The notes beneath the pieces are model-generated. The model ran no database searches and was not told where the DNA came from. It worked only from the letters and a program-made list of their open reading frames with translations. Of a stretch of 43,888 bases of DNA, positions 19,127 to 41,496 are shown piece by piece (the stretch's first letter is position 1; every line of letters begins with the position of its first letter). Made by a program: the position numbers and the translations under genes. Origin of the DNA: an uncultured Flavobacteriaceae bacterium (lineage in GTDB: Bacteria > Bacteroidota > Bacteroidia > NS11-12g > UBA955); assembly GCA_964431045.1 (NCBI GenBank), contig CAYSIK010000001.1, positions 1 through 43,888 of the forward strand, written 5' to 3'.

Positions 19127-19145
19127 TATTGTACTTTTTACAATA
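19127..19145. promoter_or_regulatory. Candidate operator TATTGT-N7-ACAATA on the promoter of the NrtR-like regulator operon
   Basis: tattgt-acttttt-acaata. The right arm overlaps the first two bases of the -7 box at 19144-19151. The same palindrome with the same spacing occurs at 31346 and 31369. Confidence 0.55.
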
Positions 19146-19151
19146 TATTTG
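19144..19151 (+). promoter_or_regulatory. -7 box TATATTTG for the glycan-utilisation operon
   Basis: TAnnTTTG match 10 nt upstream of ATG 19162. Confidence 0.45.
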
Positions 19152-19161
19152 CTTCTGTCCC

Positions 19162-19857
19162 ATGAAAAATCTCAAGAAAATTCTCAAGCAATACTTCAAC
19201 GTTGCCGTTTCGGTAGATAACGTGGTGTTTGGTTTTGACGCCGACGGACTTAAGGTTCTCCTCATTTCCCGTGGTTCCGAGCCTTTCACCGGCTCCTGGG
19301 CCCTTCCCGGTGACCTGATTTCACCCGAAATGGACCTCGAATATTCTGCAGAGAAGATCCTGAAACAGCTTACCGGGCTGGATCAGGTGTACATGGAACA
19401 GATACAAACCTTTGGTAGCGTGGACCGTCACCCGTTCGGACGTGTGTTCACCATTGCCTATTTCGCCCTTATTAAGGTAGAGAATTACCACCCACAGGCC
19501 GCTTCATGGGCCAAGGATGTGGCGTGGTTCAAGGTTACTGAAATCCCAAAATTGCCTTTTGATCACCGCGAAATACTGGAATACGCGCGCCGTCTGCTGA
19601 AAAACCGCATCCGCACTCAGACGCTGGTGTTTGAGCTTTTGCCTAAATATTTTACCCTCACCGAACTGCAGTTTATTCATGAAAGTATCCTCGAAGAAGA
19701 ATTTGATGTAAGAAACTTCAGAAAAAAGATATTGTCTTCGGGTATCATCGAAGAGACCGGTAAAATGCAAAAAAATGTAACGCACCGTCCGGCTATGTTA
19801 TACCGATACAATGCAGCAAAGGCCAAGCAGCTTGGTTTTGAAGGAGGTATTCTGTAG
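19162..19857 (+). CDS. NrtR/AraR-type transcriptional regulator (degenerate NUDIX domain plus C-terminal winged helix)
   Basis: Trimmed to ATG 19162. The Nudix box reads GDLISPEMDLEYSAEKILKQLTGL, so RE-x-x-EE is replaced by EK-x-x-KQ and the domain is probably non-catalytic. The C-terminal FTLTELQFIHESIL...FDVRNFRKKILSSGII...RPAMLYRYN resembles the NrtR winged-helix domain. Confidence 0.72.
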   Translation: MKNLKKILKQYFNVAVSVDNVVFGFDADGLKVLLISRGSEPFTGSWALPGDLISPEMDLEYSAEKILKQLTGLDQVYMEQIQTFGSVDRHPFGRVFTIAYFALIKVENYHPQAASWAKDVAWFKVTEIPKLPFDHREILEYARRLLKNRIRTQTLVFELLPKYFTLTELQFIHESILEEEFDVRNFRKKILSSGIIEETGKMQKNVTHRPAMLYRYNAAKAKQLGFEGGIL

Positions 19858-21225
19858 TGAGAGTTCTCGCGGTCATATTCGTTTTTATGGCAGCGCAATT
19901 GCCTGTTGCAGCCCAGCCTGCAAAGATTTCGCTTATCCAAAAAAACGGACAATGGCAGCTGCTCAAGAATGGACAGCCCTATTACATAAAAGGCGCCGGA
20001 GGAACGGTACAGCTCGACCTTTTGGTTGAGTGCGGCGGTAATACCATCCGCACCTGGGGAATAGATGATGCGCAGCGCATTTTGGACGATGCTGGGAATG
20101 TGGGTGCAACACGAACGTCACGGCTTCGATTATGATAACAACCTGGCGGTTCAGAAACAGATACAGCATTTCAAATCGGCAGTGGACCGCTACAAAAACC
20201 ATCCCGCCCTACTGATGTGGGGCATAGGCAATGAGGTGGATTTGTTTTACAGCAATACCAAAGTTTGGCACAGTATTCAGGCTATTGCCAAGTATGTTCA
20301 CGATACCGATCCCAACCATCCTACATGCACCGTTACGGCCGGACTGGATTCACTGGAAGTTCAGCACATCCGCGAAAAAGCCCCCGATATTGATATATAC
20401 GGCGTAAATACCTATGGGGATATTGCCGGTGTGCCGAAAAATATTGGACGGTTTGGCTGGACAGGTCCCTACATGATAACCGAATGGGGCCCCAATGGGC
20501 ATTGGGAATCGCCGGTTACACCCTGGAACGCGGCAATCGAGCAATCCAGCCGCGAAAAAGCCGATGTGTACTGGGAGCGATATGTAAAATATATCATGGC
20601 TGACAGCCAGCACTGCATTGGTTCCTATGTGTTTTTATGGGGACAAAAACAGGAATATACCCTCACCTGGTATGGCTTGTTTACCAAAGATAACAAGCAA
20701 ACCGAGGCCGTGGATATGCTTTATGAACTTTGGAACAGAAAGAAACCGCCAATACCAACACCCACCTTACATAGCCATGGCCTGCTGATTTATTTAGGGG
20801 TGGGAAATGCCCAAAAGACGCTGTTGGGTGCGGCGTCCGACAACATTTTCCTGACCGCAGGCTCCTTAAATACGGCCATTGTGAAACCCAGACTGCTTAG
20901 GGCTTCGCAAGAAGAAAGCAGCAATCCCCGCAGCTATCGCATTGAATGGAAGTTGCTTGCGGAAAGTGACGATAAAAAAGCCGGAGGCGATATGGAAAAT
21001 GAAGCTTCCGAAATTGGCGGTTTTATCAAAAAAGCCAAAGATTTTGAATTGCAGTTCAAGGCACCACGGCAGCCCGGTGCCTATCGTTTGTTTGTAACCA
21101 TCCATTACAAAAACAAGGTCGCCTATGCCAATGTGCCTTTTATGGTTAAGGATGCGGCTTCAGATGAAGGTAGTAAAGCACTCAGGTTTAAAAGATACGA
21201 CTTACAAAGTTTTGACCAGCCATGA
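19857..21225 (+). pseudogene. Secreted clan GH-A (TIM-barrel, GH2-C/GH5-like) glycoside hydrolase split by a frameshift near 20090-20103
   Basis: The 92-aa ORF at 19857..20135 has a GTG start overlapping the regulator's TAG. It carries the signal peptide MRVLAVIFVFMAAQLPVAAQ and ends ...NTIRTWGIDDAQRILDDAG. The sequence continues in the +1 frame (ORF 20065..21225) as WVQHERHGFDY...LMWGIGNEVD...YMITEWGP, with NE as acid/base and TEWG as nucleophile. The two ORFs overlap by 71 nt. Confidence 0.55.
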
Positions 21226-23075
21226 TGAAGAAATACGCACATATTGTATGGACGATATGGCTGGCGACGGCCGTTATGGCAGCATCAGCCCAGGATACTA
21301 TAAAGCTCAGCGAAACACCGGGTGTACATCCCAAAGCGCCTATGCCATCCCTGGAACGCTTCCAGGTGTCTGGCTATTACAGATTTATCACCAATGTGCG
21401 CCAACTGCAGGAAGGGTATTCCGACCAGATGAAAACCCCACTGAACATTTTCGTGGGCGATGACAGCCAGATTCCGCAATTATTACTGAACATGGGCGGC
21501 AGTATATCCCCCAACACCCGGTTTTATACTGACTTTTATCTGTGGACACCCATGATGGGCGGTGGAATGGTCGAAAATGTGAAAGGACTTAACCTCGGCG
21601 TAAGCCTTACCGGTACCCATGATTTTGAAAAAGGCACCCTGCAGGTACAGACAGGTGGTATCAACTGGTATTCCCTCACGCCTTTCACCTTCTTTTCCAA
21701 CCCCGGCTTTAACCGTTTTACGGTATTTGAGCGCAACCCCTGGGACCCAATGACCCGCAATGCTATGGATCGGTATCAGACCTTTTACCAGACCGGAGCC
21801 ATGAACCAGGATACACGCTGGGGCAGACAGGCTTTTCAGGGTTTGATTATGGACCTAAGTAACCTTCCCAATGGTTTTTCAGGGGTGCTGATGTACGGCA
21901 AAACCCAGCTGAACGGAGGTATGACCCCATTGCCCAACCACAGCCTGGGCGGTAAAATCAAAAACGGGAACGAAAACCGCTACATCAGTGTCAATACTTT
22001 CAACAACCAAACCTATTCCGACTCCCTGCTGAGCAGCACACTGGGTTTTAATGTTCATACTGCAGAATTTGTGTGGAAAAAACAAGGCTGGAAAATCTAC
22101 GGTGAAACCGGTGCCGGACGCTATTACAGTAATTCATACAATAAGGGCTGGGGTGAAGCCATATCGTTGAAACTGGATATCCCACAGCGCGTATTGCGTG
22201 TACCCCTGCAAATCCACTACTTCCGCATCAGCCCCAAAGTGATCAACAACAGCAGTGTATTCTGGAATTCTGCCATTCAGGAAGGCAACAATACCGGGGC
22301 GCAAAGCGAAGCCCAGCTTGTGCTGGCCCCTTTTTCGAGTGCCATGGTGCCGGTGGGCCAGCTCACCAATAACCGCACAGGTATTGAGCTGAACTCAGAA
22401 ACCAAAGCCGGCCGCTTCCGCATCAATGCGGGATACACCATTGCCAAAGAACTGGAGCGCATTGCCTCACAAATCACCTATTCGCACCCGGTTAATAACC
22501 TGGCTCTGTCGCGTTTCTGGCGATGGTCTTTCCCTGCGGGAGTGGGGCCCTATAAAAACCTGACCAAGGTGTACCGCGGGGTATATGAGTCGGTGGATTT
22601 GAGGGATGTGGATGCACAACAAGTGCCATTGAACGATAAATATTTCAATACTGCTGAACTTCAGATTAAATACAAAACCCAACTGGGCGGAAAAGAGCTG
22701 TTCATAAACTATCTGGGAACCTATGCATCGGTACAGTCTTTTGCCTCACCATTTACCGTGTTTACCGAAAAAGCCTATCTCCGCACGTATTACCACCAGT
22801 TGGAATCTTACCTAAAACTGGCCAGAAACCTTGTGTGGTGCAATTACGCAGGCGCCGAAAGAATCATCGCCAATTACGATACCCGAACAGATGCCATTAG
22901 CCGAAGGCCTAAAAATCAGGAGGGATATGGCATTGCTACCGGTTTTGACATAGAAATGAGCAAGGGCGCAGGCCTCTATATACGTCAGAGAAAAATGTAT
23001 TATACAGACCGCAGCTTCAGTAAAGACAGGTACCGCGGATGGGAAACCACCGTAGAATTAAAAATATTCTTTTGA
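21222..23075 (+). CDS. Predicted outer-membrane beta-barrel protein (OMP-A of a paralogous pair), unknown family, not TonB-dependent
   Basis: Signal peptide MMKKYAHIVWTIWLATAVMAASAQ. Amphipathic alternating-residue stretches run throughout. The C-terminus GWETTVELKIFF has an aromatic end typical of a beta-signal. No plug domain or TonB box is visible. The ATGATG start overlaps the upstream TGA. Confidence 0.6.
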   Translation: MMKKYAHIVWTIWLATAVMAASAQDTIKLSETPGVHPKAPMPSLERFQVSGYYRFITNVRQLQEGYSDQMKTPLNIFVGDDSQIPQLLLNMGGSISPNTRFYTDFYLWTPMMGGGMVENVKGLNLGVSLTGTHDFEKGTLQVQTGGINWYSLTPFTFFSNPGFNRFTVFERNPWDPMTRNAMDRYQTFYQTGAMNQDTRWGRQAFQGLIMDLSNLPNGFSGVLMYGKTQLNGGMTPLPNHSLGGKIKNGNENRYISVNTFNNQTYSDSLLSSTLGFNVHTAEFVWKKQGWKIYGETGAGRYYSNSYNKGWGEAISLKLDIPQRVLRVPLQIHYFRISPKVINNSSVFWNSAIQEGNNTGAQSEAQLVLAPFSSAMVPVGQLTNNRTGIELNSETKAGRFRINAGYTIAKELERIASQITYSHPVNNLALSRFWRWSFPAGVGPYKNLTKVYRGVYESVDLRDVDAQQVPLNDKYFNTAELQIKYKTQLGGKELFINYLGTYASVQSFASPFTVFTEKAYLRTYYHQLESYLKLARNLVWCNYAGAERIIANYDTRTDAISRRPKNQEGYGIATGFDIEMSKGAGLYIRQRKMYYTDRSFSKDRYRGWETTVELKIFF

Positions 23076-24802
23076 TGAAAAAACAAGTAAAACATAGCAT
23101 TAAGTTTTTAGGCCTTCTTACAGCAGCCACTCCGCTGTGGCTTTCAGCCCAAAACACCCCTAAATTCAGTATGAAAGGCGGAGCACGTTCGGTTTTGGCC
23201 AACTCAGAATTGCAGGTAAAAGACAGTGTTCCCGATAAGGTTACCGCTCCTAAAAACGCCGGAGGATATGCCCTCATAGACCTGGGTTTCAATATCCGTC
23301 CTAACAAGAACACCGAAATTTTGGGCATGATCCGCATCAACAACCGCTTTGGCGGTTTCTGGGGTGCAGGGGTAACCTTTGATGTGCGTCAGCTTTGGCT
23401 GAAAGGCGTGATTGCCGATAAAATCCGTTACCAGCTGGGCGATATTAACCTGAAACAGACCCCGTTTACTTTCTGGAACCACGATGAGGACCGGTGCATG
23501 CAACAGCCTGCTGTATTTGACCTTCAGCGGGATATTGTAAATTACGAATCTTTTTATGTGCCCGGAACATGGCGTCAACAGGGTGCGGAGGCAGATTTTG
23601 GATTGGAATCCGTAAAACTCAAATCTGACTGGAATTTTCATGGATACCTTACCCGATTGAACGCCACCAACTTTGGCAGCCAGCCCGAACGCCTGCACAC
23701 AGGAGCAACCGCCAACTGGGTTTGGAACAAAAAAGCTACCCTGGCCTACAATATCAGCCGAATTTTTGATGTTAAGGAGACCGCCACACAACCACTGTTG
23801 TTTCAGAATACGGTGCAAACCTTGTCGTGGGAATGGAAGCAGGCCTTCGGAAAACAGCAGTTCACCCTCGGAGGTGAAGCCGGCAATTCATCCTACCGCA
23901 TCGTACACGATACAGCATCACCCCATCTGCAAGACTTTTTTGCTCATGGTTTTGTAAAAGTTGCACCCAATGGCAAACGCTGGGAGGCTGAAGCAGGTTA
24001 TATCAATGTGGGTCCCGATTTCAGAAGCATAGCGGCGCAATCTAAACGCATTGATTACAATGCACAACCCTTATTGTATAATCGCTATACCCAAATGCAA
24101 ATAGACCGCCCCCTGCACCTGCTGGATTTTATTGGTAATGCCAATCTTTACCGAAATGGAATCAGTACAAAGCTGATGGCCTACAATCCTCTGGTAAACA
24201 ATGTACTTCCTTACGGAATCGCGACCTTTAACCGGCAAGGTTTTTATGCAAAAGCGAAGTATAATATTGTAAAAAATACAATAACATTGGATGCACAACA
24301 CTGGCGCTTGTCTGAAATTTTGGGTCAGGGAACACCCGAACTCAAAAAGATGGATATGACCCGGCTCGATGTAAACTGTGATGCAGGCAAGTTGCTCGGA
24401 ATAAAAAAACAGGCTAAACTGCATGTGTCGGCATGTAACCAGAATACCCGGCGCAAGAGTCCGCGTGCCTACGAAGAGCTGGATTTAAACTCTCTGCAAT
24501 GGTCGGCCGGCATGGAAATGGAGGTAATGAAGGACATTGATGTGCTGGGCGGCTACACCTCCCTGCAAGGAAAAGGAAATGATCAGACGGCCGTGCGCAA
24601 TGAATACACCGAAGTGATTGATTTTGCAGGCTTTTCAGCCAATCAGCGACACAGCACAGCTGCCGCCGGACTCAGGGTGCGTTTTGGCGGTAAAACCTAT
24701 CTGGCACTCATGTATCAGCGTATGCAGTACCAAAACAAGGCCCAGGCATTCCGGGATTACAGCATCGGACAAATGCAGGCCATTTATAACATGACATTCT
24801 GA
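23075..24802 (+). CDS. Predicted outer-membrane beta-barrel protein (OMP-B, distant paralog of OMP-A)
   Basis: Trimmed to ATG 23075 (TGATG overlap), giving MKKQVKHSIKFLGLLTAATPLWLSAQ. The C-terminus is GQMQAIYNMTF. It shares with OMP-A an ordered set of motifs: I-x-PN, G-x-IN-x3-4-TPFTF and W-x-x-Q. Confidence 0.6.
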   Translation: MKKQVKHSIKFLGLLTAATPLWLSAQNTPKFSMKGGARSVLANSELQVKDSVPDKVTAPKNAGGYALIDLGFNIRPNKNTEILGMIRINNRFGGFWGAGVTFDVRQLWLKGVIADKIRYQLGDINLKQTPFTFWNHDEDRCMQQPAVFDLQRDIVNYESFYVPGTWRQQGAEADFGLESVKLKSDWNFHGYLTRLNATNFGSQPERLHTGATANWVWNKKATLAYNISRIFDVKETATQPLLFQNTVQTLSWEWKQAFGKQQFTLGGEAGNSSYRIVHDTASPHLQDFFAHGFVKVAPNGKRWEAEAGYINVGPDFRSIAAQSKRIDYNAQPLLYNRYTQMQIDRPLHLLDFIGNANLYRNGISTKLMAYNPLVNNVLPYGIATFNRQGFYAKAKYNIVKNTITLDAQHWRLSEILGQGTPELKKMDMTRLDVNCDAGKLLGIKKQAKLHVSACNQNTRRKSPRAYEELDLNSLQWSAGMEMEVMKDIDVLGGYTSLQGKGNDQTAVRNEYTEVIDFAGFSANQRHSTAAAGLRVRFGGKTYLALMYQRMQYQNKAQAFRDYSIGQMQAIYNMTF

Positions 24803-25806
24803 TGAAAATGAAAAATATAATTCGCATATTGCCCCTGCTATTCCTCATTGCTTCCTGTAAGCGCGACAATAAGCAATTTGAAGGCCCCAGCCTGGAAGAT
24901 CTAAACGGTCCGTTTGCAATGGTAAAACCTTTCACCGCGAGCAAAACAGCCGCTGATTTTTCAAAAGGAGAAACCATCACATTTGGTGCTGAATTTACCA
25001 AACAGTGCGACTGGACCATCACCATCTACGGCGATTTGAGCAAAGCGCGGAAAATTATCAGCGGCAAATCCAGAACAGTAGACGCCGGAAATGCTACCTG
25101 GGAAGGAACAACCACGGTATTGCCCGCCTTCCGAACAGAACCTTGCAAGGCAGTATTGAAAATTGCCGGGGTTACAGACAGCTTTAGCCTAAATCTGGGT
25201 GTCAACGGGGTGCGTGTGCCCAAAGGTCTTGTTATTGCTGACTTTGAAAGCGGCCTGAATATCAAATGGAATACATTTATTCAGTCCGGAGCCAATATGG
25301 ATTTCAAAGTAAAAACCGATGCTTTTTCCGTTCAGGGAAAGAATTACCTGAATATGGCCGGTACGGTTTCATGGGACTGGCTTATCGGACTGATTGATTT
25401 TCCCGCTTCAGCCTACGGCTCGCCCACGCTGGCCTTGAGCACCGTTCCGGAAGATGTGTATTTCAATTGCCTTATTTATGGCGATGCAACACCCAATCCA
25501 AGCAGGGTATTGTTTCAGTTCAAAGAAGATGATAACAACAACAAAACCTTTGATCCCAGTGCCGATGACCAGTTTGACAAGGAAATCATTGTAAACTGGC
25601 AGGGTTGGAAACTCGTTTCATTCAAATACAGCGATCTGATCCACCTCAGCAATGGGCAACCCGCTCCCAACAACGGAAACAACCGCCACAACCCAAACAG
25701 CATCGTTACCCTCTCTATGCTGCACCTGGCGAACCCCTCCATGGGTGCAGCCGGCACCAAAATTGACTACCTGATATTTACCGATAAGTCACCCTTGCAA
25801 TTGTGA
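24802..25806 (+). CDS. Surface lipoprotein, putative glycan-binding beta-sandwich (CBM-like)
   Basis: Lipobox LFLIASC. A mid/C-terminal VIADFESG...WN...NYLNMAGT...WQGWKLVSFKYSDL pattern resembles galactose-binding-like/CBM folds, but this is weak. The TGATG start overlaps the upstream stop. Confidence 0.5.
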   Translation: MKMKNIIRILPLLFLIASCKRDNKQFEGPSLEDLNGPFAMVKPFTASKTAADFSKGETITFGAEFTKQCDWTITIYGDLSKARKIISGKSRTVDAGNATWEGTTTVLPAFRTEPCKAVLKIAGVTDSFSLNLGVNGVRVPKGLVIADFESGLNIKWNTFIQSGANMDFKVKTDAFSVQGKNYLNMAGTVSWDWLIGLIDFPASAYGSPTLALSTVPEDVYFNCLIYGDATPNPSRVLFQFKEDDNNNKTFDPSADDQFDKEIIVNWQGWKLVSFKYSDLIHLSNGQPAPNNGNNRHNPNSIVTLSMLHLANPSMGAAGTKIDYLIFTDKSPLQL

Positions 25807-26495
25807 TGAACAGGATTACAGCAACACTAACCGTATTGCTTTTGTGGGGCTCGGCATGGGCTCAGGATTCTGCTGTGCGCAACATAGATACTGTTCATAT
25901 CAAAAATAGCGTGTTGCGTATGAAAAACCTGGGGCTGTACGACCGTTCCGAAACTTCTCCAACCCCTGAAATAGGCGGCTTTGGTGCCTTGCAGCTATTT
26001 GATGAGAATATGGGTTCTGAAATCTGGGTTTCCAAAGAACAGGCCTGTGTAACCGTAAACAAAGACAAAACAAATCCCTACAGCGGAGAATACTGTATGC
26101 GCGCCAAGTGGGATAAAATTGCCGGCGGCTGCAAATGGATTGGAATGGGATTTGGCTGGGACAACTGGCAACCCAAAGACTTGTCCGGTATAGTGGATTC
26201 TGCCTGCATTCAAATGCAGATCCGTTCGCAAACCGATACCCTCAAATCATTGCCGCTGGCCCTGGCGCTCGAAGATTATACAGGGGCGCAATGTTTTATC
26301 GGGTTTTCACCCAAATACCTGAATGGCAAGCGAATCATGCCCGGCAGCTGGACCCCTGTTACTATTCCTCTCTCAGACTTTCCCTTTGAACGTTTTCAGA
26401 CACAATCCGATATGATCAAACAATTTATTATTCAGTTTGAGGCTGACGGGGATGTCTATATTGACAATATCAAACTGGTTAGAAAAAGCAGGTAA
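25806..26495 (+). CDS. Secreted protein, putative carbohydrate-binding module (CBM11/CIA30-like beta-sandwich)
   Basis: Signal peptide MNRITATLTVLLLWGSAWAQ. The C-terminal WTPVTIPLSDF...IKQFIIQFEADGDVYIDNIKLV is typical of CBM beta-sandwich ends. The function call is tentative. Confidence 0.45.
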   Translation: MNRITATLTVLLLWGSAWAQDSAVRNIDTVHIKNSVLRMKNLGLYDRSETSPTPEIGGFGALQLFDENMGSEIWVSKEQACVTVNKDKTNPYSGEYCMRAKWDKIAGGCKWIGMGFGWDNWQPKDLSGIVDSACIQMQIRSQTDTLKSLPLALALEDYTGAQCFIGFSPKYLNGKRIMPGSWTPVTIPLSDFPFERFQTQSDMIKQFIIQFEADGDVYIDNIKLVRKSR

Positions 26496-26500
26496 GCTAT

Positions 26501-28735
26501 ATGAAAAAAGGCTTTAAAATACTTTTATCGATTTGTGTTTTTGTGTTTTTTAATACAATAAGTGCACAGAATAGCCGTGATGCAGCGGTAGAAAACCGCA
26601 TAAAGGCAATGACTTTGGAAGAAAAAGTAGGCCAAATGTCGCAGATTGACCTGGGTGTGCTGGCCGTGGGAAAGATTTGTGAGGTCTCCGACCCGATACG
26701 ACTTGACACTGCCAAACTCCGCCTGGCTTTTCAGCGCTACAAAGTGGGTTCCGTGCTCAACTGTGGTTGCGGTTTTCATGCCCTCAGCCGCAAACGCTGG
26801 CTGGAACTCATTGACAGCATTCAGCAGGCAAACAGCCTTTACACAAAACACAGCATCCCTGTATTGTATGGCATAGATGCCATTCACGGTGCCAATTATA
26901 CCCTGGGCTCAACCCTGTTTCCCCAGCAAATTGGGCAGGCTGCGACATGGAATCCTGAACTGGTAAAAGCTGCAGCACAAATTACTGCCTACGAAACACG
27001 TGCCTCAGGCATACCCTGGAACTTTTCGCCGGTGCTGGATATTGGCCGGCAACCCCTGTGGTCAAGGTTTTTCGAGACCTATGGCGAAGATGTGTGTCTG
27101 GCCAAAAGGATGACGAATGCCTGTATTTCGGGTTATCAGGGCAACACCTTCGGAAATGAACAGGTGGCGGCATGTATGAAGCATTTCCTGGGCTACAGCT
27201 ATCCGCTGAGTGGCAAGGACCGCACCCCCGTTTGGATTGGTGAACGGGAACTGAGGGCCTATTTTCTGCCCACATTTCAGGAAGCCATCCGGCTGAAAGC
27301 CAAAACCCTGATGATTAACTCCGGAGAGCTAAATGGTGTGCCTGTTCATGCCAGCTATCCCATTCTCACAACCCTGCTTAGAGAAGAACTGGGCTTTGAA
27401 GGCGTGGCGGTTACCGATTGGGAAGATGTATACAAACTGCATACCACCCACAAAGTAGCCGAAACACTGAGAGATGCCGTGAAAATGGCCGTGATGGCGG
27501 GTATCGATATGAGCATGACTCCCAATGATTTTCAGTTTAATGAACTGTTAGTGGATCTGGTAAAATCGGGTGAAATTCCGGAAAGCCGCCTGGATATGTC
27601 GGTGCGGCGCATACTGAAACTGAAATCAGATTTAGGCCTTGAAGGAAATGTAAGCTTGCCTTCACTGGCCGATTATCCGTTGTTTGGCTCAGACAGCTTT
27701 GCCCATGTGGCCAATGATGCCGTTGCTGAATCGATAACCCTGCTGAAAAATGAGGGAGATGTATTGCCCCTGTCACCCGGATCCAAAGTATGGTTGATGG
27801 GAAATGCTGCCAACAACCTCAACTACCTGAATGGAGCCTGGTCACAAACCTGGCTGGGACAGGACACAAGGTTCAATGAATCGGGTAAATTGACCATTCT
27901 GCAGGCTTTGCAAGCCGGTTATGGCAAGGATCAAATTACGGAGGTAACGCCTCAATACGTGATGCAGAACCAACGTAAATCAAAACGCCTGCCCGGCGCG
28001 GTAGTTTATTGCCTTGGAGAAACGCCTGCCACGGAAATCCCCGGAAACATTAATGATTTGGCCATTACCATCCCGGATGAAGACCGCAAGGCGCTGGAAT
28101 TATTAAAGGCCCGAAAAGTACCTGTAGTGCTGGTATTGCTTTTGGCAAGGCCGCGCATCATAACCGATCTGGATAAACTGAGCCGAGCCGTGGTACATGC
28201 CTACATCCCCGGTCAGGAGGGAGCAAAGCCGCTGGCGGACTTATTGTATGGCAAAATCAATCCTTCAGGCCGTTTGCCCTTTACCTACCCGCGTTCTTCT
28301 GGAGATATTGTACACTATGACCGTAAACGCACTGAAGACAATGATATCAATTTCGGAAGCAGTGCCTACAATCCGCTGTATGATTTTGGCCACGGCCTTT
28401 CCTATACCCGTTTTGATTACTGGGGCATGAGCGTCAAGCCTGAGAATGACACATTTGTTATTCAGGTTCTTGTAAGAAATACAGGAAATCGCGAGGGCAA
28501 GGAAGTTGTGCAGGTATACTACCGCGATGAATACGCACCGATTACCCCCTCCCAGAAAAAACTATGCGCATTTAGCAAGGTAAATCTTAAGCCCGGGCAG
28601 GATGCTGCTGTTACCCTTAAAGTTCCCTTCTCCGATGTGGGAGACATTGGCGCTGATATGAAACCCTTTAAAGCATCCGGTACCATTGTTTTCCGTGCCG
28701 GACAACAAACCGTAACCCTTAACCACAAACCCTGA
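26501..28735 (+). CDS. Glycoside hydrolase family 3 beta-glucosidase (BglX-like), secreted
   Basis: 744 aa with a signal peptide. MTLEEKVGQM, GIDAIHGAN, KHFLGY and the nucleophile region GFEGVAVTDWED are present, with a C-terminal Fn3-like tail. Confidence 0.9.
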   Translation: MKKGFKILLSICVFVFFNTISAQNSRDAAVENRIKAMTLEEKVGQMSQIDLGVLAVGKICEVSDPIRLDTAKLRLAFQRYKVGSVLNCGCGFHALSRKRWLELIDSIQQANSLYTKHSIPVLYGIDAIHGANYTLGSTLFPQQIGQAATWNPELVKAAAQITAYETRASGIPWNFSPVLDIGRQPLWSRFFETYGEDVCLAKRMTNACISGYQGNTFGNEQVAACMKHFLGYSYPLSGKDRTPVWIGERELRAYFLPTFQEAIRLKAKTLMINSGELNGVPVHASYPILTTLLREELGFEGVAVTDWEDVYKLHTTHKVAETLRDAVKMAVMAGIDMSMTPNDFQFNELLVDLVKSGEIPESRLDMSVRRILKLKSDLGLEGNVSLPSLADYPLFGSDSFAHVANDAVAESITLLKNEGDVLPLSPGSKVWLMGNAANNLNYLNGAWSQTWLGQDTRFNESGKLTILQALQAGYGKDQITEVTPQYVMQNQRKSKRLPGAVVYCLGETPATEIPGNINDLAITIPDEDRKALELLKARKVPVVLVLLLARPRIITDLDKLSRAVVHAYIPGQEGAKPLADLLYGKINPSGRLPFTYPRSSGDIVHYDRKRTEDNDINFGSSAYNPLYDFGHGLSYTRFDYWGMSVKPENDTFVIQVLVRNTGNREGKEVVQVYYRDEYAPITPSQKKLCAFSKVNLKPGQDAAVTLKVPFSDVGDIGADMKPFKASGTIVFRAGQQTVTLNHKP

Positions 28736-29580
28736 TGACCAGAATATTTTACATCATTCCTGCATTGGCAGTGCTGTTGCTTTCGCCGATATACTCCTGT
28801 AAGCAATCCGATCCACCCGACAATAAGAACAGGGTAATCCGCGATTCAGGCGATCTGGTATTTTCCGGCTATGGCTGGAATATCAAATCCAGCACCGGTC
28901 CTGTCGGCCCCGGCCCCAACTACTTTAATGGCAGCGACAGCATGGTGTGGGTGGACAGTAAGGGATATCTGCACCTGCGCATTGCCAAAATTAACGGCAA
29001 GTGGCAAAGCAGTGAGGTTATCTGCACTGAGACTTCAGGCTACGGAACGTATGTGTTTTGCCTGGAAAGTGATGTCGCCACCTTTAATGAACGTGTGGTA
29101 CTGGGCTTGTTTACCTGGGATGACAATTCATTCAAAGAACAGGCCAATAGTGAAGTAGACATCGAGTTTTCCAAGTGGTTTAAGGCCGGCGACAGCTCCA
29201 CCCTTACCTATTCGGTTCAGCCGGTCATTTTCGACAATCCCATTGCCTACAGCGAACGTTCATTTAAGCCTGTGATGCAGGTGAGCAAACTGAAACAGCC
29301 AAGTACCCATTTGTTCAACTGGCGAGCTGACCAAATAACCTGGAACTCCTACACAGGTTCGGTGTATCCAGGTGGCAGTCCACTGGCATCCTGGAGTTTT
29401 AATTTAAACAACCCTGTAAGAACCAAGATAGAGGGGGGGAATTCTTCCAACCCCATTATAATCCCGGCGCCCGGCGCAACTACCCATGCACGCATGAATT
29501 TGTGGCTGCTAAACGGACTTCCTCCTACTGATGGAAAGCCCGTAGAGGTGGTAGTAAGGTCGTTTGAGTATATTCCCTAA
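28735..29580 (+). CDS. Glycoside hydrolase family 16 (lichenase/laminarinase-type) lipoprotein
   Basis: Lipobox SPIYSC. The catalytic strand SEVDIEF matches the ExDxE (EIDIEF) lichenase motif. The flanking SGYGTYVF, HLFNWRADQITW and HARMNLWLLNG parallel the order of Bacillus lichenase blocks. Confidence 0.75.
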   Translation: MTRIFYIIPALAVLLLSPIYSCKQSDPPDNKNRVIRDSGDLVFSGYGWNIKSSTGPVGPGPNYFNGSDSMVWVDSKGYLHLRIAKINGKWQSSEVICTETSGYGTYVFCLESDVATFNERVVLGLFTWDDNSFKEQANSEVDIEFSKWFKAGDSSTLTYSVQPVIFDNPIAYSERSFKPVMQVSKLKQPSTHLFNWRADQITWNSYTGSVYPGGSPLASWSFNLNNPVRTKIEGGNSSNPIIIPAPGATTHARMNLWLLNGLPPTDGKPVEVVVRSFEYIP

Positions 29581-29590
29581 AAACAAAAAA

Positions 29591-29607
29591 GGAGGCACAA
29601 GGCCTCC
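29591..29607. terminator. Bidirectional terminator hairpin between the convergent GH16 and T9SS genes
   Basis: ggaggc-acaag-gcctcc, flanked by an A-rich run upstream (aaacaaaaaa, 29581-29590) and ctcttt downstream. Confidence 0.55.
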
Positions 29608-29631: not shown

Positions 29632-31299
29632 TTATTTGCTGTTGATGAAGATGCGCTCCTGATAGCTGCCTTCTGTGGTATTGATAACCATCAGATACAT
29701 GCCGGATTTGGCGCTGTTAAGATTGATTTCGGTGTTGATGGCTTTGCCGGTGAAACCTCTGCTGTAAATCTTCTGTCCTACTACATCAAAAATTTCAATG
29801 TTTCCTGAGGTCAGATTGCTGAATGAAGCGGAAACGTTGAAGCGTCCGTTACCGGGATTTGGGAATACTTTCACACCATTGGCGGTAATGCCTGAATTGC
29901 CCAACGTAGCGCAGCTAACACATTTTTCCCAGCACACAGCAGGCAGGGTTGTATCTGCTTTCACAACACCCATGCGGTTGGTAAACTGACCGGTTGTTTT
30001 GGTGCAGCTTTCACCACCTGTGAATGTTTCCTTGGCAGTCCATCCGTCTACAGTAAAGAGATATTCGAATGTATCGGTAGCGTTCAGGGGCAAGGTGATT
30101 TCATAGACCTTGTCGTTATCCGCATCGGTCATGGGATTGCAGGCACCGCACCAGCCATTGAAGGATCCGTTGATGTTCACGGCAGTGTAAGAACCTGTGT
30201 ATTTGCTCATATCTACCTTGAAAGTAACGTTTGCTTTTTCTTTGGTGTTGGCACAGCTTACGCAAGATTCAAAGCACACAGCATCAAGAACGGTGTTGCC
30301 CGTAATTTTCATAAAACGGTTGGTGTAACCTGCGGTAGTTTTGGTGCAGGATGAACCTTCCTTCATCATTTCCTTTACTGTCCAGCCATCGAGGGTAAAC
30401 AGAAACTCAATAGAATCCTGGGGCAATGGTAATTTCACTTCCCAGATACCGTCTTTGTCGGCATCGGCCATTGGATTGCAGTTTCCGCACCAGCCGTTGA
30501 AGCTGCCGTTTACAAATACACCGGTAAATGCAGCGCCTTTGTATTTGGCCATGTCTACCTTGAAAGTAACATCGTTGGTACACTCGCTGCAGCTTGCCCA
30601 GCAAACATTTGCCAGCACTTTAGAACCTGAAACTTTCAGGAAACGGTTGGTGTAGCCGCCGGTAGTTTTGGTGCACGAACTGCCTGAAGTTAGTTTTTCA
30701 TCGTCCTTCCAGTTGTCTACCTGAAATTTGTATTCAATGGAATCCTGTGTGATGTCGAAGGTACCGCTGAAAATTTTGTCACCGTCTGCATCTGTAAGCT
30801 GATTGCTATTGCCGGACCAGCTGTTGAAGTTGCCGGAAACATATACGTTGGTGTAAGAACCGCTGTATTGCTTCATGTTTACGTTGAAAGTAACCGATTT
30901 TTTGGTTACGGAAGAACAAGCTGCACAGCTTTCGAAACAAACCTTGCTTAAGGTAGTGTTGCCGGTAAGCTTTACAAAACGGTTGGTGTAGCCTGAAGTG
31001 GTTTTTGTGCAGGAGCTTCCGGGTGTAAGGGCTTCCTGTTTTGACCAGTTGTCCATGGTGAACTTGTACTCAATAGAGTCATCATTGATGTCGAAGGTGC
31101 CTTCCCACACGCCGTCAGCGTTAGCATCAGACAGCGCATTTCCGTTGCCGGACCAGCTGTTGAAAGTACCACTCACGTATACGGTCGTGAATGAGCCACC
31201 GGCGTAGTTGTTCATGTCAACCTGAAAAGTAACTTTCTTTTGAGCCCACAGGCCTGTCAAGAAAGCGCTCAGGAATAAAGCGGTAATGATTTTTTTCAT
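29632..31299 (-). CDS. T9SS-secreted protein with four tandem Cys-rich CBM-like modules
   Basis: Signal peptide MKKIITALFLSAFLTGLWAQ. Four modules of ~110 aa read VTFxVDM..Y...V.VSGxFNxW.G..N...DADxD..(W/F)...(F/L)......EYKF..D.W...E.....SCTKTT.GYTNRF.......L..VC(F/W)..C..C. The C-terminus VFPNPGNGRFNV...GMYLMVINT...IFINSK is a Por CTD. Confidence 0.78.
   Translation of the reverse strand: MKKIITALFLSAFLTGLWAQKKVTFQVDMNNYAGGSFTTVYVSGTFNSWSGNGNALSDANADGVWEGTFDINDDSIEYKFTMDNWSKQEALTPGSSCTKTTSGYTNRFVKLTGNTTLSKVCFESCAACSSVTKKSVTFNVNMKQYSGSYTNVYVSGNFNSWSGNSNQLTDADGDKIFSGTFDITQDSIEYKFQVDNWKDDEKLTSGSSCTKTTGGYTNRFLKVSGSKVLANVCWASCSECTNDVTFKVDMAKYKGAAFTGVFVNGSFNGWCGNCNPMADADKDGIWEVKLPLPQDSIEFLFTLDGWTVKEMMKEGSSCTKTTAGYTNRFMKITGNTVLDAVCFESCVSCANTKEKANVTFKVDMSKYTGSYTAVNINGSFNGWCGACNPMTDADNDKVYEITLPLNATDTFEYLFTVDGWTAKETFTGGESCTKTTGQFTNRMGVVKADTTLPAVCWEKCVSCATLGNSGITANGVKVFPNPGNGRFNVSASFSNLTSGNIEIFDVVGQKIYSRGFTGKAINTEINLNSAKSGMYLMVINTTEGSYQERIFINSK
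29905..31233 (-). repeat. Four in-frame tandem repeats (324-342 bp each) encoding the CBM-like modules
   Basis: Module boundaries are aa 23-135, 136-243, 244-357 and 358-465. DNA-level similarity is visible, e.g. ggtgtagcctgaagtggtttttgtgcagga, ggtgtagccgccggtagttttggtgcacga and ggtgtaacctgcggtagttttggtgcagga. Confidence 0.8.
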
Positions 31300-31533: not shown

Positions 31534-32439
31534 TTACCGTTTGAGAGTTACCCTCCGGTAATCTTCTGTGTAGGCCCCTACCACTCCATAAGCCCCCGGA
31601 ACATTCCCTTTTATTTTTCCCGGCAGCTGGCTAATACTTTGCTGCTGCCAAATATGGGCATTTCGGGTGTTGTAAAAATCATACAGGGATTTGTCGATGT
31701 TCTCCAGATGAAACTCAATACCCGTAGGCCTTTCGAAGGTTGTTTTTACCAGTAGATCAGAAGTGTAAAATACCATGTATTTATATACCCCGTTGAATGT
31801 TGCGTCTGAAAAAACCACTTCACGCGATGTGTAATTGTTGTAATCGTTTTCCGCCGCTGCCAGGTCATCTGAAAACAAGGCTATGATTTCTTTTTTCAGA
31901 AAACTGTCAATGAGTTTACCCGATTTGTCATACTCATATTTGTAGGTGTTTTTATACAGATAGCAGCGATAATAATTGTCTTTTGCAGCATCATCATTGA
32001 ACCGGATGGCAACTGAAAATGCACGGCCAATACCGGGAACAAGTTGCCTTGTAGTGTCAAGTATATTAATGGGAGTATAACCGGGAATGACCATTGGAAT
32101 TATATAGGAAGACATTCCTGACACATCACCCTTAAATAGAAGGGAATCACCGGCCTTGGCGGCATTGGAACCAAAGCGGTGAACACCATTTCCGACATAA
32201 AGACTGGTATCTTTCCGTTGACCGGACTTCCAGATTTCAAACCGTACATTGGCCAGTGGCATATCTTTACTTCCGAAGGGTGCAGTCAGTCTGGAATCTG
32301 CTGTCAAAACACTGTCTGGAGTAATAAAGCAATGAATTGCAGGCAAGGGTGTTATCTGCGAATTTGGATTGTACGGAATTTCTTTTATGCATCCGCTTAA
32401 AATTATAACCGTTACAATATGTAAGACGCCAATTCTCAA
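31534..32439 (-). CDS. DUF4249 family lipoprotein (usual partner of CarboxypepD_reg-type TonB-dependent receptors)
   Basis: Lipobox IILSGC. The TTG start overlaps the TGA of the upstream receptor (TTGA). Size and position directly after the TBDR fit the DUF4249 pattern. Confidence 0.6.
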   Translation of the reverse strand: MRIGVLHIVTVIILSGCIKEIPYNPNSQITPLPAIHCFITPDSVLTADSRLTAPFGSKDMPLANVRFEIWKSGQRKDTSLYVGNGVHRFGSNAAKAGDSLLFKGDVSGMSSYIIPMVIPGYTPINILDTTRQLVPGIGRAFSVAIRFNDDAAKDNYYRCYLYKNTYKYEYDKSGKLIDSFLKKEIIALFSDDLAAAENDYNNYTSREVVFSDATFNGVYKYMVFYTSDLLVKTTFERPTGIEFHLENIDKSLYDFYNTRNAHIWQQQSISQLPGKIKGNVPGAYGVVGAYTEDYRRVTLKR

Positions 32440-41417: not shown

Positions 41418-41480
41418 ACGGCAAATTTCGGGTATTTATGACGTATTGGCGCATTTAATACAGATGCTTTTACAAATTCG

Positions 41481-41488
41481 TATTTTTG
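41481..41488 (+). promoter_or_regulatory. -7 box TATTTTTG for the GH3-family ligase gene
   Basis: TAnnTTTG match 8 nt upstream of ATG 41497. Confidence 0.45.
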
Positions 41489-41496
41489 CCACAACA

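What the first reader, a model, noticed from the sequence alone, without database searches (positions are those of the whole stretch)
21222..24802. Tandem pair of distantly paralogous ~600-aa beta-barrel OMPs of unrecognised family
Both proteins have cleavable signal peptides and aromatic C-terminal ends (ELKIFF and IYNMTF). They share an ordered motif set. OMP-A has LNMGGSISPNTRF ... GGINWYSLTPFTFFSNP ... TRWGRQAFQG. OMP-B has IDLGFNIRPNKNTEI ... GDINLKQTPFTFWNHD ... GTWRQQGAEADF. I cannot place them in SusC/TBDR, OmpA, OprB, maltoporin or Omp85 families by eye. A duplicated barrel pair joined by a TGATG overlap suggests a heteromeric or two-step channel.
Basis: partly seen in the sequence, partly recalled or inferred. 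Interest (0 to 1): 0.65.

Follow-up and report, generated by a model that had tools for sequence, protein, structure and literature searches.

The report
SusC/D-free beta-glucan uptake barrel pair
Two adjacent, anciently duplicated outer-membrane barrel proteins sit where the usual SusC/SusD transporter would be in a beta-1,3-glucan (laminarin) degradation operon of an uncultured freshwater Bacteroidota bacterium; they are homologues of two Cytophaga hutchinsonii proteins known to be essential for cellulose use, which suggests that this little-studied system is a widespread alternative sugar-uptake machine.

Summary
ORFs 21222-23075 (OMP-A, 617 aa) and 23075-24802 (OMP-B, 575 aa) have signal peptides, aromatic C-termini and a TGATG junction. 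Both model as large beta-barrels without a plug. Neither matches Pfam, NCBIfam or PDB sequences.

They are true distant paralogues. Narrow family profiles did not show this (score within shuffle noise).

The family is not wholly unknown. OMP-A, OMP-B and the next gene, a lipoprotein, are homologues of Cytophaga hutchinsonii CHU_1276, CHU_1277 and CHU_1278 (E 2.5e-80, 1.4e-113, 1e-35). These belong to the "atypical PUL" chu_1276-1280, which is needed for cellulose use.

Here the module lies in a tight operon: NrtR-like regulator, GH158, OMP-A, OMP-B, CBM11-like lipoprotein, SGBP-B/CBM30-like protein, GH3, GH16-like lipoprotein. The core order is conserved in 81 loci. The trio OMP-A, OMP-B, lipoprotein also occurs beside other enzymes, including GT2 synthases.

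Most likely role: the outer-membrane capture and uptake unit, probably TonB-independent, of a SusC/D-free beta-1,3-glucan locus. Heteromer formation is plausible but untested.

The parts
19129..19857 (+). NrtR/AraR-type NUDIX plus winged-helix transcriptional regulator, the first gene of the packed gene string
   Evidence: Pfam NrtR_WHD 3e-25, AraR_C 4e-12, NUDIX 1e-7. Present upstream in 29 of 64 related loci with room.
19857..21225 (+). GH158 endo-beta-1,3-glucanase gene. In this window it is split into two ORFs (19857-20135 and 20065-21225) by a 26-bp deletion near 20086. It has a signal peptide but no lipobox.
   Evidence: The intact homologue L001:8542-9996 matches PDB GH158 9oro at 3.9e-86 and 6pal at 1.5e-72. 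The deletion is seen against L003 and L004. GH158 is upstream of OMP-A in 75 of 75 loci. Only 6 of 73 homologues have a lipobox-like N-terminus.
21222..23075 (+). OMP-A: 617-aa outer-membrane beta-barrel without a plug (about 22 strands by my count), a homologue of C. hutchinsonii CHU_1276
   Evidence: AF2 model; Foldseek generic barrels; no Pfam, NCBIfam or PDB match. The window-type OMP-A HMM hits CHU_1276 at E 2.5e-80. 308 family representatives at 50% identity.
23075..24802 (+). OMP-B: 575-aa outer-membrane beta-barrel, an ancient paralogue of OMP-A and a homologue of C. hutchinsonii CHU_1277. Its start codon overlaps the OMP-A stop codon (TGATG).
   Evidence: AF2 model; hhalign A3 vs A2 E 1.8e-11 with controls. 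The OMP-B HMM hits CHU_1277 at E 1.4e-113. OMP-B follows OMP-A in 74 of 74 loci. Junction sequence.
24802..25806 (+). 334-aa lipoprotein (LIASC lipobox) with a CBM11-like C-terminal domain, a homologue of CHU_1278. Presumed surface glycan-binding protein.
   Evidence: Family HMM hits CHU_1278 at E 1e-35. Pfam CBM_11 gives weak hits in 12 of 20 members. PDB CBM11 1v0a/6r3m at E 0.08. Lipobox in 69 of 69 homologues. Follows OMP-B in 67 of 67 loci.
25803..26495 (+). 230-aa secreted CBM-like protein (SGBP-B xyloglucan-binding-domain/CBM30-like). It occupies the position of CHU_1279.
   Evidence: Pfam SGBP_B_XBD 2.5e-6, above the family's curated cut-off, and CBM30 0.003. Present in 61 of 63 loci. 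Not detectably similar to CHU_1279 (E 0.01).
26501..28735 (+). GH3 beta-glucosidase with a signal peptide and no lipobox, predicted periplasmic
   Evidence: Pfam Glyco_hydro_3 2e-66, Glyco_hydro_3_C 2e-33, Fn3-like. Present in 47 of 53 loci. Lipobox in 2 of 55 homologues.
28735..29580 (+). 281-aa lipoprotein, a divergent GH16-like beta-glucanase with an invariant E140-x-D142-x-E144 motif
   Evidence: Family profile hits GH16 lichenases 1byh and 1mac at about 4e-4. Pfam Glyco_hydro_16 is weak in 3 of 18 members. Invariant columns. Lipobox in 53 of 54 homologues. Present in 52 of 53 loci.
29591..29607 (+). Terminator-like GC-rich hairpin followed by a T-rich tail, just after the last gene of the string
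   Evidence: This is a consensus scan only, and the number of sites found is not above shuffle expectation.

Best explanation
OMP-A and OMP-B are two anciently duplicated outer-membrane beta-barrels without a plug domain. With the CBM11-like lipoprotein encoded next, and a further CBM-like protein, they form the outer-membrane module of a SusC/SusD-free polysaccharide utilisation locus. This is the same module as CHU_1276/CHU_1277/CHU_1278 of the Cytophaga hutchinsonii cellulose locus.

In this window the module sits in a beta-1,3-glucan (laminarin) operon.

Proposed sequence of events (inferred, not shown):
1. The surface lipoprotein and the CBM-like protein capture the glucan.
2. The GH16-like lipoprotein may nick it at the cell surface.
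3. Chains or large oligosaccharides cross the outer membrane through the OMP-A/OMP-B barrels, probably without TonB energy, since there is no plug domain and no conserved N-terminal box.
4. In the periplasm the non-lipoprotein endo-glucanase GH158 and the exo-acting GH3 reduce them to glucose.

Shown here: the homologies, the paralogy, the conserved gene order, the barrel models and the enzyme families.

Taken from the literature: the Cytophaga homologues are outer-membrane proteins, each individually needed for cellulose use, and CHU_1276 is implicated in glucose uptake.

Inferred: the direction of transport, TonB independence, and that the two barrels act as one complex.
For: 1. Barrels of no curated family.
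2. Paralogy: hhalign E 1.8e-11, score 99 against shuffles of at most 31. The OMP-A superfamily HMM also hits Cytophagaceae OMP-B proteins at 1.5e-7 and 2.7e-6.
3. Homology with the Cytophaga locus. P0500 is named [Cytophaga hutchinsonii ATCC 33406]. Its locus L087 encodes 743, 606, 380 and 375 aa proteins followed by a GH9. This matches the published description, in which CHU_1279 is 375 aa and CHU_1280 is an endoglucanase. HMM E-values are 2.5e-80, 1.4e-113 and 1e-35.
4. Literature (PMC12016534). CHU_1276 and CHU_1277 are outer-membrane proteins and each is required for cellulose use. A chu_1276 mutant has a growth defect on low glucose. [quoted passage not shown] Reference 27 reports periplasmic endoglucanases.
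5. Catabolic setting: GH158, GH3, a GH16-like protein, CBM11-like and SGBP_B_XBD-like binders, and an NrtR/AraR-type regulator. All eight genes overlap or are 5 nt apart at most.
6. The order GH158, OMP-A, OMP-B, lipoprotein, CBM is conserved in 81 loci from different species-level genomes.
7. The trio also lies next to a hybrid two-component regulator, sulfatases with a 7TMR-DISM sensor, DUF4832 enzymes, and GH3. These are typical surroundings of polysaccharide utilisation loci.
8. GH158 and GH3 lack lipoboxes, whereas the binders and the GH16-like protein are lipoproteins.
Against: - No experiment or complex model here shows that either barrel conducts sugars or that the two associate.
- The AF2 models are of moderate confidence. 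The most conserved segments (OMP-A 152-201, 337-384 and 427-452; OMP-B 23-136) are the least confident, so whether the pore is open or occluded is unknown.
- About one fifth of the family's full-length representatives (cluster 2, 14 of 76) may sit in a different setting. Both members sampled lie directly after a GT2 synthase fused to GH domains plus an acyltransferase. That is a biosynthesis or export context, so the family's direction of transport is not uniform or not established.
- The published CHU_1277 phenotype concerns cellooligosaccharide degradation (title of reference 26). From my memory of that paper's abstract, which I could not fetch, CHU_1277 was described as supporting cell-surface beta-glucosidase activity, so OMP-B may be a scaffold rather than a pore.
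- The GH158 gene in this window is disrupted, so this copy of the operon may not be fully functional, or the assembly may be wrong.
Confidence: 0.68

Rival explanations
1. Scaffold model. One or both barrels, especially OMP-B/CHU_1277, are not sugar channels. They act as membrane platforms that hold and position the surface lipoproteins, glycan binders and glycosidases. The sugars would cross through other porins or TonB-dependent transporters.
For: - The barrels are always co-encoded with a lipoprotein and a CBM-like protein.
- Reference 26 ties CHU_1277 to cellulose and cellooligosaccharide degradation rather than to transport.
- The PMC12016534 discussion proposes that CHU_1279 stabilises a larger complex with CHU_1276 or CHU_1277.
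- The window also encodes a TonB-dependent receptor elsewhere (32436-35075).
Against: - CHU_1276 loss impairs growth on low glucose, and reference 23 attributes glucose uptake to it.
- Two barrels of roughly 22 strands are a costly anchor.
- The endo-glucanase and GH3 are predicted to be periplasmic, so oligosaccharides must enter somehow. No other transporter is conserved in the locus.
Confidence: 0.15
2. Export model. The barrel pair is the outer-membrane exit of a synthase-dependent polysaccharide secretion system, and the glycosidases in the locus trim or recycle the product.
For: Two sampled members of one subfamily lie directly downstream of a 1262-1282 aa GT2 synthase fused to GH26-like and GH2_C-like domains, plus an Acyl_transf_3 protein.
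Against: - In the window and in 81 related loci there is no synthase in the gene string.
- The string instead holds three glycoside hydrolases, two glycan binders and a catabolic-type regulator.
- The Cytophaga homologues are needed for cellulose consumption.
- There is no match to Wzi, Wza, AlgE-type or BcsC-type families. AlgE appears only as a generic barrel hit with TM about 0.26-0.30.
Confidence: 0.06
3. Redundant porins. OMP-A and OMP-B are two independent substrate-specific porins kept side by side after duplication. Each works alone, with no complex between them.
For: They are paralogues. Tandem porin duplicates are common (general knowledge).
Against: - The duplication predates all sampled contexts. 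Both copies are retained in fixed order in every locus with room (74 of 74; also L083-L089).
- The copies have diverged so far that single-family profiles no longer detect each other.
- Each Cytophaga gene is individually required for cellulose use.
All three points argue for distinct, non-redundant roles.
Confidence: 0.08

Closest known systems
Cytophaga hutchinsonii chu_1276-chu_1280 'atypical PUL' (CHU_1276 and CHU_1277 outer-membrane proteins, CHU_1278 and CHU_1279 SGBP-like proteins, CHU_1280 GH9 endoglucanase; PMC12016534 and its references 23, 26, 27, 28)
   Same: - OMP-A, OMP-B and the lipoprotein are sequence homologues of CHU_1276, CHU_1277 and CHU_1278, in the same gene order.
- A CBM-like protein follows the lipoprotein in both loci.
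- A glycoside hydrolase for the target glucan is in the cluster, and no SusC/SusD pair is.
- An ECF sigma factor lies upstream in some relatives (L001), as reported for Cytophaga.
   Different: - The substrate and enzymes differ: GH158, GH3 and a GH16-like protein (beta-1,3-glucan) instead of GH9 (cellulose).
- The regulator here is NrtR-type.
- The fourth protein is SGBP_B_XBD/CBM30-like and is not detectably related to CHU_1279.
- The hosts are uncultured freshwater planktonic Bacteroidota rather than soil cellulolytic gliders.
- The paper reports the cluster only in two close relatives of C. hutchinsonii and does not mention that the two barrels are paralogues.
SusC/SusD-type polysaccharide utilisation loci, for example the Bacteroides uniformis beta-1,3-glucan PUL with GH16, GH158 and GH3 (PMC7157763)
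   Same: The enzyme logic (GH158, GH3, GH16-type) and the presence of surface glycan-binding proteins are the same. The locus is a compact, co-oriented gene string. The barrel models resemble 22-stranded TonB-dependent transporter barrels at fold level.
   Different: There is no plug domain, no TonB_dep_Rec or Plug Pfam match and no SusD-like partner. Two paralogous barrels stand in place of one transporter. Transport is therefore probably not energised by TonB.
Substrate-specific sugar porins (maltoporin LamB, ScrY, chitoporin ChiP, OprB)
   Same: The proposed role is the same: passive, substrate-selective passage of oligosaccharides across the outer membrane. They appear among the generic Foldseek hits.
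   Different: Those porins are barrels of 16-18 strands and about 350-450 aa (general knowledge). Here the proteins are about 600 aa with about 22 strands, occur as a fixed heterologous pair, and are encoded with dedicated lipoproteins. There is no sequence or family match.
Barrel-plus-lipoprotein machines such as LptD/LptE and MtrB/MtrA
   Same: A very large barrel is encoded with a partner protein that could sit in or on it. LptD and MtrB are among the Foldseek hits.
   Different: TM-scores are low (0.16-0.34). There is no sequence relationship. The cargo differs, and no evidence here shows that the lipoprotein inserts into a barrel.

Membership tests
CHU_1276/CHU_1277-type atypical PUL (Cytophaga hutchinsonii chu_1276-1280) | First barrel homologous to CHU_1276 | tested here: met
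   HMM of the window-type OMP-A family vs CHU_1276 (L087:10001-12232): E 2.5e-80, near full length. Superfamily HMM: 4e-204. P0500 is named C. hutchinsonii ATCC 33406.
CHU_1276/CHU_1277-type atypical PUL (Cytophaga hutchinsonii chu_1276-1280) | Second barrel, immediately downstream, homologous to CHU_1277 | tested here: met
   OMP-B family HMM vs CHU_1277 (L087:12248-14068): E 1.4e-113, HMM positions 44-572.
CHU_1276/CHU_1277-type atypical PUL (Cytophaga hutchinsonii chu_1276-1280) | SGBP-like lipoprotein (CHU_1278) following the barrels | tested here: met
   Lipoprotein family HMM vs CHU_1278: E 1e-35, full length. BLASTP of the window lipoprotein vs CHU_1278: 7e-17.
CHU_1276/CHU_1277-type atypical PUL (Cytophaga hutchinsonii chu_1276-1280) | CHU_1279-type tandem-CBM protein | tested here: inconclusive
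   The window's 230-aa protein is in the same position and hits Pfam SGBP_B_XBD. It shows no significant similarity to CHU_1279 (E 0.01). CHU_1279-type modules are present in L086, L088 and L089.
CHU_1276/CHU_1277-type atypical PUL (Cytophaga hutchinsonii chu_1276-1280) | Genes required for, and induced by, the target polysaccharide | not testable with these tools
   Needs genetics and transcriptomics in a carrier organism. Only the Cytophaga data exist.
SusC-like TonB-dependent transporter with SusD | N-terminal plug domain and TonB box inside a 22-strand barrel | tested here: not met
   No Plug or TonB_dep_Rec match at E up to 1 for either protein, nor at E up to 0.1 in 33 OMP-A and 36 OMP-B family members. 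The modelled barrel starts about 20 residues after the signal peptide. The N-terminus is not conserved.
SusC-like TonB-dependent transporter with SusD | Adjacent SusD-like lipoprotein | tested here: not met
   No SusD family hit among the operon proteins. The lipoprotein is CBM11-like.
Classical sugar porins (LamB/ScrY, OprB, ChiP) | Sequence or family match and a barrel of 16-18 strands | tested here: not met
   No Pfam or PDB sequence hit. Foldseek TM normalised to the query is 0.26-0.33. About 22 strands by DSSP on the model.
Polysaccharide export outer-membrane proteins (Wzi, Wza, AlgE, BcsC/PgaA barrels) | Family match and co-location with synthesis or export genes | tested here: not met
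   No Pfam match. AlgE appears only as a generic barrel hit with TM 0.26-0.30. There is no synthase in the window operon or in 81 related loci. One divergent subfamily is next to GT2 synthases.
Omp85/BamA, LptD, fimbrial ushers | POTRA, LptD N-terminal or usher plug domains, and a family match | tested here: not met
   No Pfam match. Foldseek TM is 0.16-0.37.

The most novel reading that the evidence does not exclude
The OMP-A/OMP-B/lipoprotein trio may be a third, general glycan translocon of Bacteroidota, alongside SusC/D and classical porins. It would be a heteromeric, TonB-independent pair of wide barrels that threads whole glycan chains. It would work inward in catabolic loci (laminarin here, cellulose in Cytophaga, and other substrates next to sulfatases, DUF4832 enzymes and hybrid two-component regulators). 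It would work outward in loci where it follows a GT2 synthase and an acyltransferase. If so, this would give a physical candidate for the proposed but unexplained passage of cellulose chains into the Cytophaga periplasm. It would also account for the transport step in at least some CAZyme clusters that lack SusC/D.
Probability: 0.25. Interest if true: 0.85.

Novelty: new variant of a known kind. Interest (0 to 1): 0.6.

Why it matters
SusC/SusD pairs are used as the hallmark for finding polysaccharide utilisation loci in Bacteroidota (review PMC13543919). This locus has the full enzyme and binding-protein logic of a laminarin PUL, but a pair of paralogous plug-less barrels stands where SusC/D would be.

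Those barrels are homologous to CHU_1276 and CHU_1277. That link does three things:
- It ties a poorly understood cellulose system of one soil bacterium to a family with 308 representatives at 50% identity and close relatives in at least 255 species-level genomes, most of them freshwater Bacteroidota from metagenomes.
- It shows that the module is combined with different enzyme sets.
- It offers soluble-substrate versions (laminarin), which should be easier to study than crystalline cellulose.

It also means that SusC/D-based PUL prediction misses these loci. Laminarin turnover by the freshwater Bacteroidota that carry them could therefore be missed by such predictions.

Tried and rejected
- BLASTP of OMP-A vs OMP-B and hhalign of the two narrow family profiles gave only marginal scores. 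My shuffle controls showed these were within noise: 5 of 60 and 16 of 60 shuffles reached the full-length score, and 38 of 150 reached the N-terminal score. I would have rejected paralogy had I stopped there.
- The OMP-B HMM against 150 OMP-A representatives gave nothing significant, apart from one fused gene call, P0369.
- PDB sequence searches with three profiles found nothing.
- Foldseek gave only generic barrels.
- The lipoprotein, CBM and GH16-like families are not related to each other by hhalign.
- I could not fetch references 23, 26 and 28 on CHU_1276 and CHU_1277. The mSystems proteomics paper does not mention these genes.
- Looking up cluster names for ten representatives gave no organism names.
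- The promoter scan was uninformative, with fewer sites than in shuffles.
- I considered a TonB box in OMP-A's DTIKLSE stretch. I rejected it because the N-terminus is not conserved in the family.
- I could not superimpose the two models on each other or build a complex model.


Full report
**1. The observation**

The ORF list shows OMP-A at 21222-23075 (617 aa). OMP-B lies in an ORF that opens at 23039, but its likely start is the ATG at 23075. That start gives 575 aa, exactly the length of its 25 closest homologues.

The junction reads ...TTT TGA TGA AAA.... The TGA stop is at 23073-75 and the ATG at 23075-77, so the TGATG overlap is real. Both proteins start with typical signal peptides ending ASAQ and LSAQ. 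They end in ELKIFF and IYNMTF.

**2. Fold and family**

Neither protein matches any Pfam-A or NCBIfam model. The only exception is a sub-threshold OMP_b-brl hit for OMP-B, seen in 12 of 36 family members. PDB sequence searches with family profiles return nothing.

AlphaFold2 with family alignments gives beta-barrels for both:
- OMP-A: pLDDT 73.5, pTM 0.73.
- OMP-B: pLDDT 71.4, pTM 0.72, with residues 23-136 poorly defined.

Counting the long strands in the DSSP string of OMP-A gives about 22 transmembrane strands. The first strand starts about 20 residues after the signal peptide, so there is no room for a plug domain. This strand count is my reading of the DSSP string, not a measured property.

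Three long non-strand segments (152-201, 337-384, 411-473) are of low confidence. They nevertheless carry many of the most conserved residues of the superfamily: P173, W174, Y185, N349, N384, R385, G387, H422, N425 and G442. By strand parity they would be extracellular loops that could fold into the lumen. This is inference only.

Foldseek against the PDB gives only generic barrel matches, with TM-scores of at most 0.43. These include TonB-dependent receptor barrels such as ZnuD and PfeA, as well as MtrB, LptD, ushers and porins.

**3. Are OMP-A and OMP-B paralogues?**

- hhalign of the two families built from close homologues (A1, A2; Neff about 2.5) gives E 0.086.
- My shuffle controls show that score is noise. 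The full-length score is 23.4, against 19.2 +/- 3.2 for column shuffles (5 of 60 reach it) and 21.2 +/- 3.2 for block shuffles (16 of 60 reach it). For the N-terminal part, 38 of 150 shuffles reach the real score.

An exhaustive HMMER search with A1 then found 308 family representatives at 50% identity, many of them highly divergent. I built a broadened alignment, A3, from 33 sequences of all sub-clusters (Neff 5.3). Against the OMP-B family it gives probability 97.3%, E 1.8e-11 and score 99.1 over 480 columns. OMP-A residues 49-616 align with OMP-B residues 25-563.

Controls with the same profile were much lower:
- reversed OMP-B: 35.6
- column shuffles: 17.2 +/- 1.8 (maximum 20.8)
- block shuffles: 23.6 +/- 3.5 (maximum 31.1)

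In that alignment the following pairs are in register:

| OMP-A | OMP-B |
|---|---|
| LLLNMGGSISPNT | LIDLGFNIRPNKNTE |
| GGINWYSLTPFTF | GDINLKQTPFTF |
| RYQTFY | NYESFY |
| NNRTG | FNRQG |

The plain A3 HMM also hits OMP-B-type proteins of two Cytophagaceae genomes, at 1.5e-7 and 2.7e-6 in a set of 15 sequences. The paralogy is therefore real, full-length and ancient.

**4. Genomic setting in the window**

The pair lies in a string of eight co-oriented genes that overlap or are at most 5 nt apart:

| Coordinates | Gene product | Evidence |
|---|---|---|
| 19129-19857 | NrtR/AraR-type regulator | |
| 19857-21225 | GH158 endo-beta-1,3-glucanase | intact homologue vs PDB 9oro 3.9e-86, 6pal 1.5e-72 |
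| 21222-23075 | OMP-A | see above |
| 23075-24802 | OMP-B | see above |
| 24802-25806 | 334-aa lipoprotein, CBM11-like C-terminal domain | Pfam CBM_11 weak in 12 of 20 members; PDB CBM11 E 0.08 |
| 25803-26495 | 230-aa secreted protein | SGBP_B_XBD 2.5e-6, CBM30 |
| 26501-28735 | GH3 beta-glucosidase | |
| 28735-29580 | 281-aa lipoprotein, GH16-like | invariant ExDxE motif; family profile hits GH16 lichenases at about 4e-4 |

A terminator-like hairpin follows at 29591-29607.

This is the enzyme and binding-protein content of a laminarin utilisation locus. The Bacteroides beta-1,3-glucan PULs contain GH16, GH158, GH3 and SGBPs (PMC7157763, listed; the gene content is from my knowledge of that paper). 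The difference is that this locus has no SusC/SusD.

**5. Conservation of the locus**

A scan of one genome per GTDB species found relatives in 255 genomes, and the best 80 loci were fetched. Almost all are freshwater-lake or river Bacteroidota assembled from metagenomes. A few records carry implausible names such as 'uncultured Rhizobium sp.'.

With HMMs for each operon protein, the counts among loci with enough flanking sequence were:

| Feature | Loci with it / loci with room |
|---|---|
| OMP-B directly after OMP-A | 74 / 74 |
| Lipoprotein after OMP-B | 67 / 67 |
| CBM protein | 61 / 63 |
| GH158 upstream | 75 / 75 |
| GH16-like lipoprotein | 52 / 53 |
| GH3 | 47 / 53 |
| NrtR-type regulator | 29 / 64 |

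An N-terminal census predicts where the proteins go:
- The binding lipoprotein (69 of 69) and the GH16-like protein (53 of 54) are lipoproteins.
- GH158 (6 of 73) and GH3 (2 of 55) are not, and they carry no T9SS C-terminal domain. They are therefore probably periplasmic.

**6. The module in other contexts**

The contexts of divergent OMP-A-family representatives each show the same arrangement. An OMP-A-type gene is followed by a genuine OMP-B-type gene (E 1e-96 to 1e-130). In most cases a homologue of the lipoprotein comes next (E 1e-15 to 1e-43).

The surroundings vary:
- DUF4874/DUF4832 enzymes with T9SS tails (L083)
- sulfatases and a 7TMR-DISM sensor (L085)
- an OMP-A protein with an N-terminal CBM4_9, near a GH5, a ROK kinase and a mannose-6-phosphate isomerase (L086)
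- a hybrid two-component regulator (the P0305 context)
- GH3 (L088 and L089, both on multi-megabase contigs: 5.1 Mb and 4.5 Mb)

In two members of one sub-cluster the setting is different. The pair follows a 1262-1282 aa fusion of a GT2 synthase with GH26-like and GH2_C-like domains, plus an Acyl_transf_3 protein (the P0296 context and L084). That sub-cluster holds 14 of the 76 full-length representatives.

The duplication into OMP-A and OMP-B therefore predates the spread of the module into these contexts.

**7. Link to a studied system**

A literature search led to the C. hutchinsonii chu_1276-chu_1280 'atypical PUL' (PMC12016534). As described there:
- CHU_1276 and CHU_1277 are outer-membrane proteins, and each is needed for cellulose use.
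- The CHU_1276 model is a beta-barrel that retrieves TonB-dependent transporters.
- A chu_1276 mutant grows poorly on low glucose.
- CHU_1278 is predicted to be an SGBP-like bimodular beta-sandwich.
- CHU_1279 (375 aa) is an SGBP-B-like cellulose binder whose C-terminal domain resembles CBM11 (PDB 6R3M).
- CHU_1280 is an endoglucanase.
- An ECF sigma factor controls chu_1276.

Reference titles add two points. One attributes glucose uptake to the CHU_1276 protein (reference 23). Another reports periplasmic endoglucanases (reference 27).

To test homology I searched with a profile of 49 divergent OMP-A representatives (A6). The hits include P0500, 'hypothetical protein [Cytophaga hutchinsonii ATCC 33406]' (743 aa, 720 bits), along with Sporocytophaga and many Cytophagaceae entries. 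The P0500 locus, L087, encodes proteins of 743, 606, 380 and 375 aa followed by a GH9 of 589 aa. This matches the published cluster.

HMM searches gave:

| HMM | Target | E-value |
|---|---|---|
| window-type OMP-A | CHU_1276 | 2.5e-80 |
| OMP-B | CHU_1277 | 1.4e-113 |
| lipoprotein | CHU_1278 | 1e-35 |
| CBM protein | CHU_1279 | 0.01 (not significant) |

CHU_1279-type modules do recur, in one to three copies, after the lipoprotein in L086, L088 and L089.

The paper does not mention that the two barrels are paralogues. It reports the cluster only in C. aurantiaca and S. myxococcoides. A 2026 review of bacterial glycoside transporters treats SusC/D as the Bacteroidota outer-membrane system and describes no such barrel pair in the passages I retrieved.

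**8. Mechanism**

The best-supported reading is that OMP-A and OMP-B, with the lipoprotein and the CBM protein, form the outer-membrane capture and uptake unit of a SusC/D-free beta-1,3-glucan locus.

The absence of a plug domain and of a conserved N-terminal box argues for TonB-independent passage. The endo-glucanase is predicted to be periplasmic (GH158 here; the GH9 in Cytophaga, going by the title of reference 27). This suggests that fairly long chains enter the periplasm. Laminarin is small and soluble (general knowledge), which would make that feasible.

Strict co-occurrence, deep divergence of the two copies and the individually essential Cytophaga genes argue that the two barrels have distinct, cooperating roles. 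Whether they form one heteromeric pore, two pores in series or in parallel, or a pore plus a scaffold is not resolved.

The GT2-linked subfamily shows that the family may also work in export. For this window, the three hydrolases, two binders and catabolic-type regulator make export unlikely.

**9. Novelty and verdict**

It is not a wholly unknown kind of system. It is a beta-1,3-glucan variant of the CHU_1276/1277 atypical PUL.

As far as the literature I could search shows, three things are new:
- the demonstration that the two barrels are paralogues;
- the breadth of the family (308 representatives at 50% identity, and close relatives in at least 255 species genomes);
- its combination with different enzyme sets, including synthases.

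I rate interest at 0.6. The more ambitious reading, a general and possibly bidirectional TonB-independent glycan translocon of Bacteroidota, has a probability of about 0.25 and would deserve about 0.85.

Noticed in passing
window 19857-21225 (deletion near 20086): The GH158 gene is split into two ORFs by a 26-bp deletion relative to the close homologues L003 and L004. This is either a pseudogene in this genome or an assembly error. The rest of the operon is intact.
   Followed up: partly
window 31534-35075 (- strand): A TonB-dependent receptor-like protein (CarbopepD_reg_2 plus Plug, 879 aa) is followed by a DUF4249 protein. The organism therefore has TonB-dependent transporters elsewhere, but not in the glucan operon.
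   Followed up: no
window 29632-31299 (- strand): A 555-aa protein with repeated CBM48/CBM53-type (glycogen/starch-binding) modules and a T9SS C-terminal sorting domain, convergent with the end of the operon.
   Followed up: no
L086:10001-12382 (protein P0290): A CBM4_9 module is fused to the N-terminus of an OMP-A-type barrel. The N-terminus of outer-membrane barrels is normally periplasmic. This implies either an unusual topology or a glycan-binding domain on the periplasmic or lumenal side.
   Followed up: partly
L084:2-5024, and the contig of P0296: A 1262-1282 aa fusion of a processive-type GT2 with GH26-like and GH2_C/GH72-like domains, plus an Acyl_transf_3 protein, lies directly upstream of an OMP-A/OMP-B pair. 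This is a biosynthesis or export context for the same barrel module.
   Followed up: partly
protein P0369 (361 aa, from the representative search): It matches OMP-A positions 380-561 and also the OMP-B HMM (E 8e-21). It is probably a fused or chimeric gene call on a fragment.
   Followed up: no
L086:15130-15735, L088:15021-16975, L089:14985-17162, L087:15249-16376: The CHU_1279-type CBM-like module of about 150 aa occurs in one, two or three copies in the proteins that follow the lipoprotein in Cytophagaceae-type loci. The window's 230-aa protein in the same position is not detectably related.
   Followed up: partly
L001:7764-8507: In some relatives an ECF sigma factor, rather than the NrtR-type regulator, lies just upstream of GH158. 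This recalls the ECF control reported for chu_1276.
   Followed up: no
window 41395-43047: A member of the 'GH3' acyl-acid amido synthetase family (Pfam PF03321, which is not a glycoside hydrolase) is followed by a SIS-domain protein that matches the glucokinase-regulatory-protein (GKRP) SIS-domain families.
   Followed up: no
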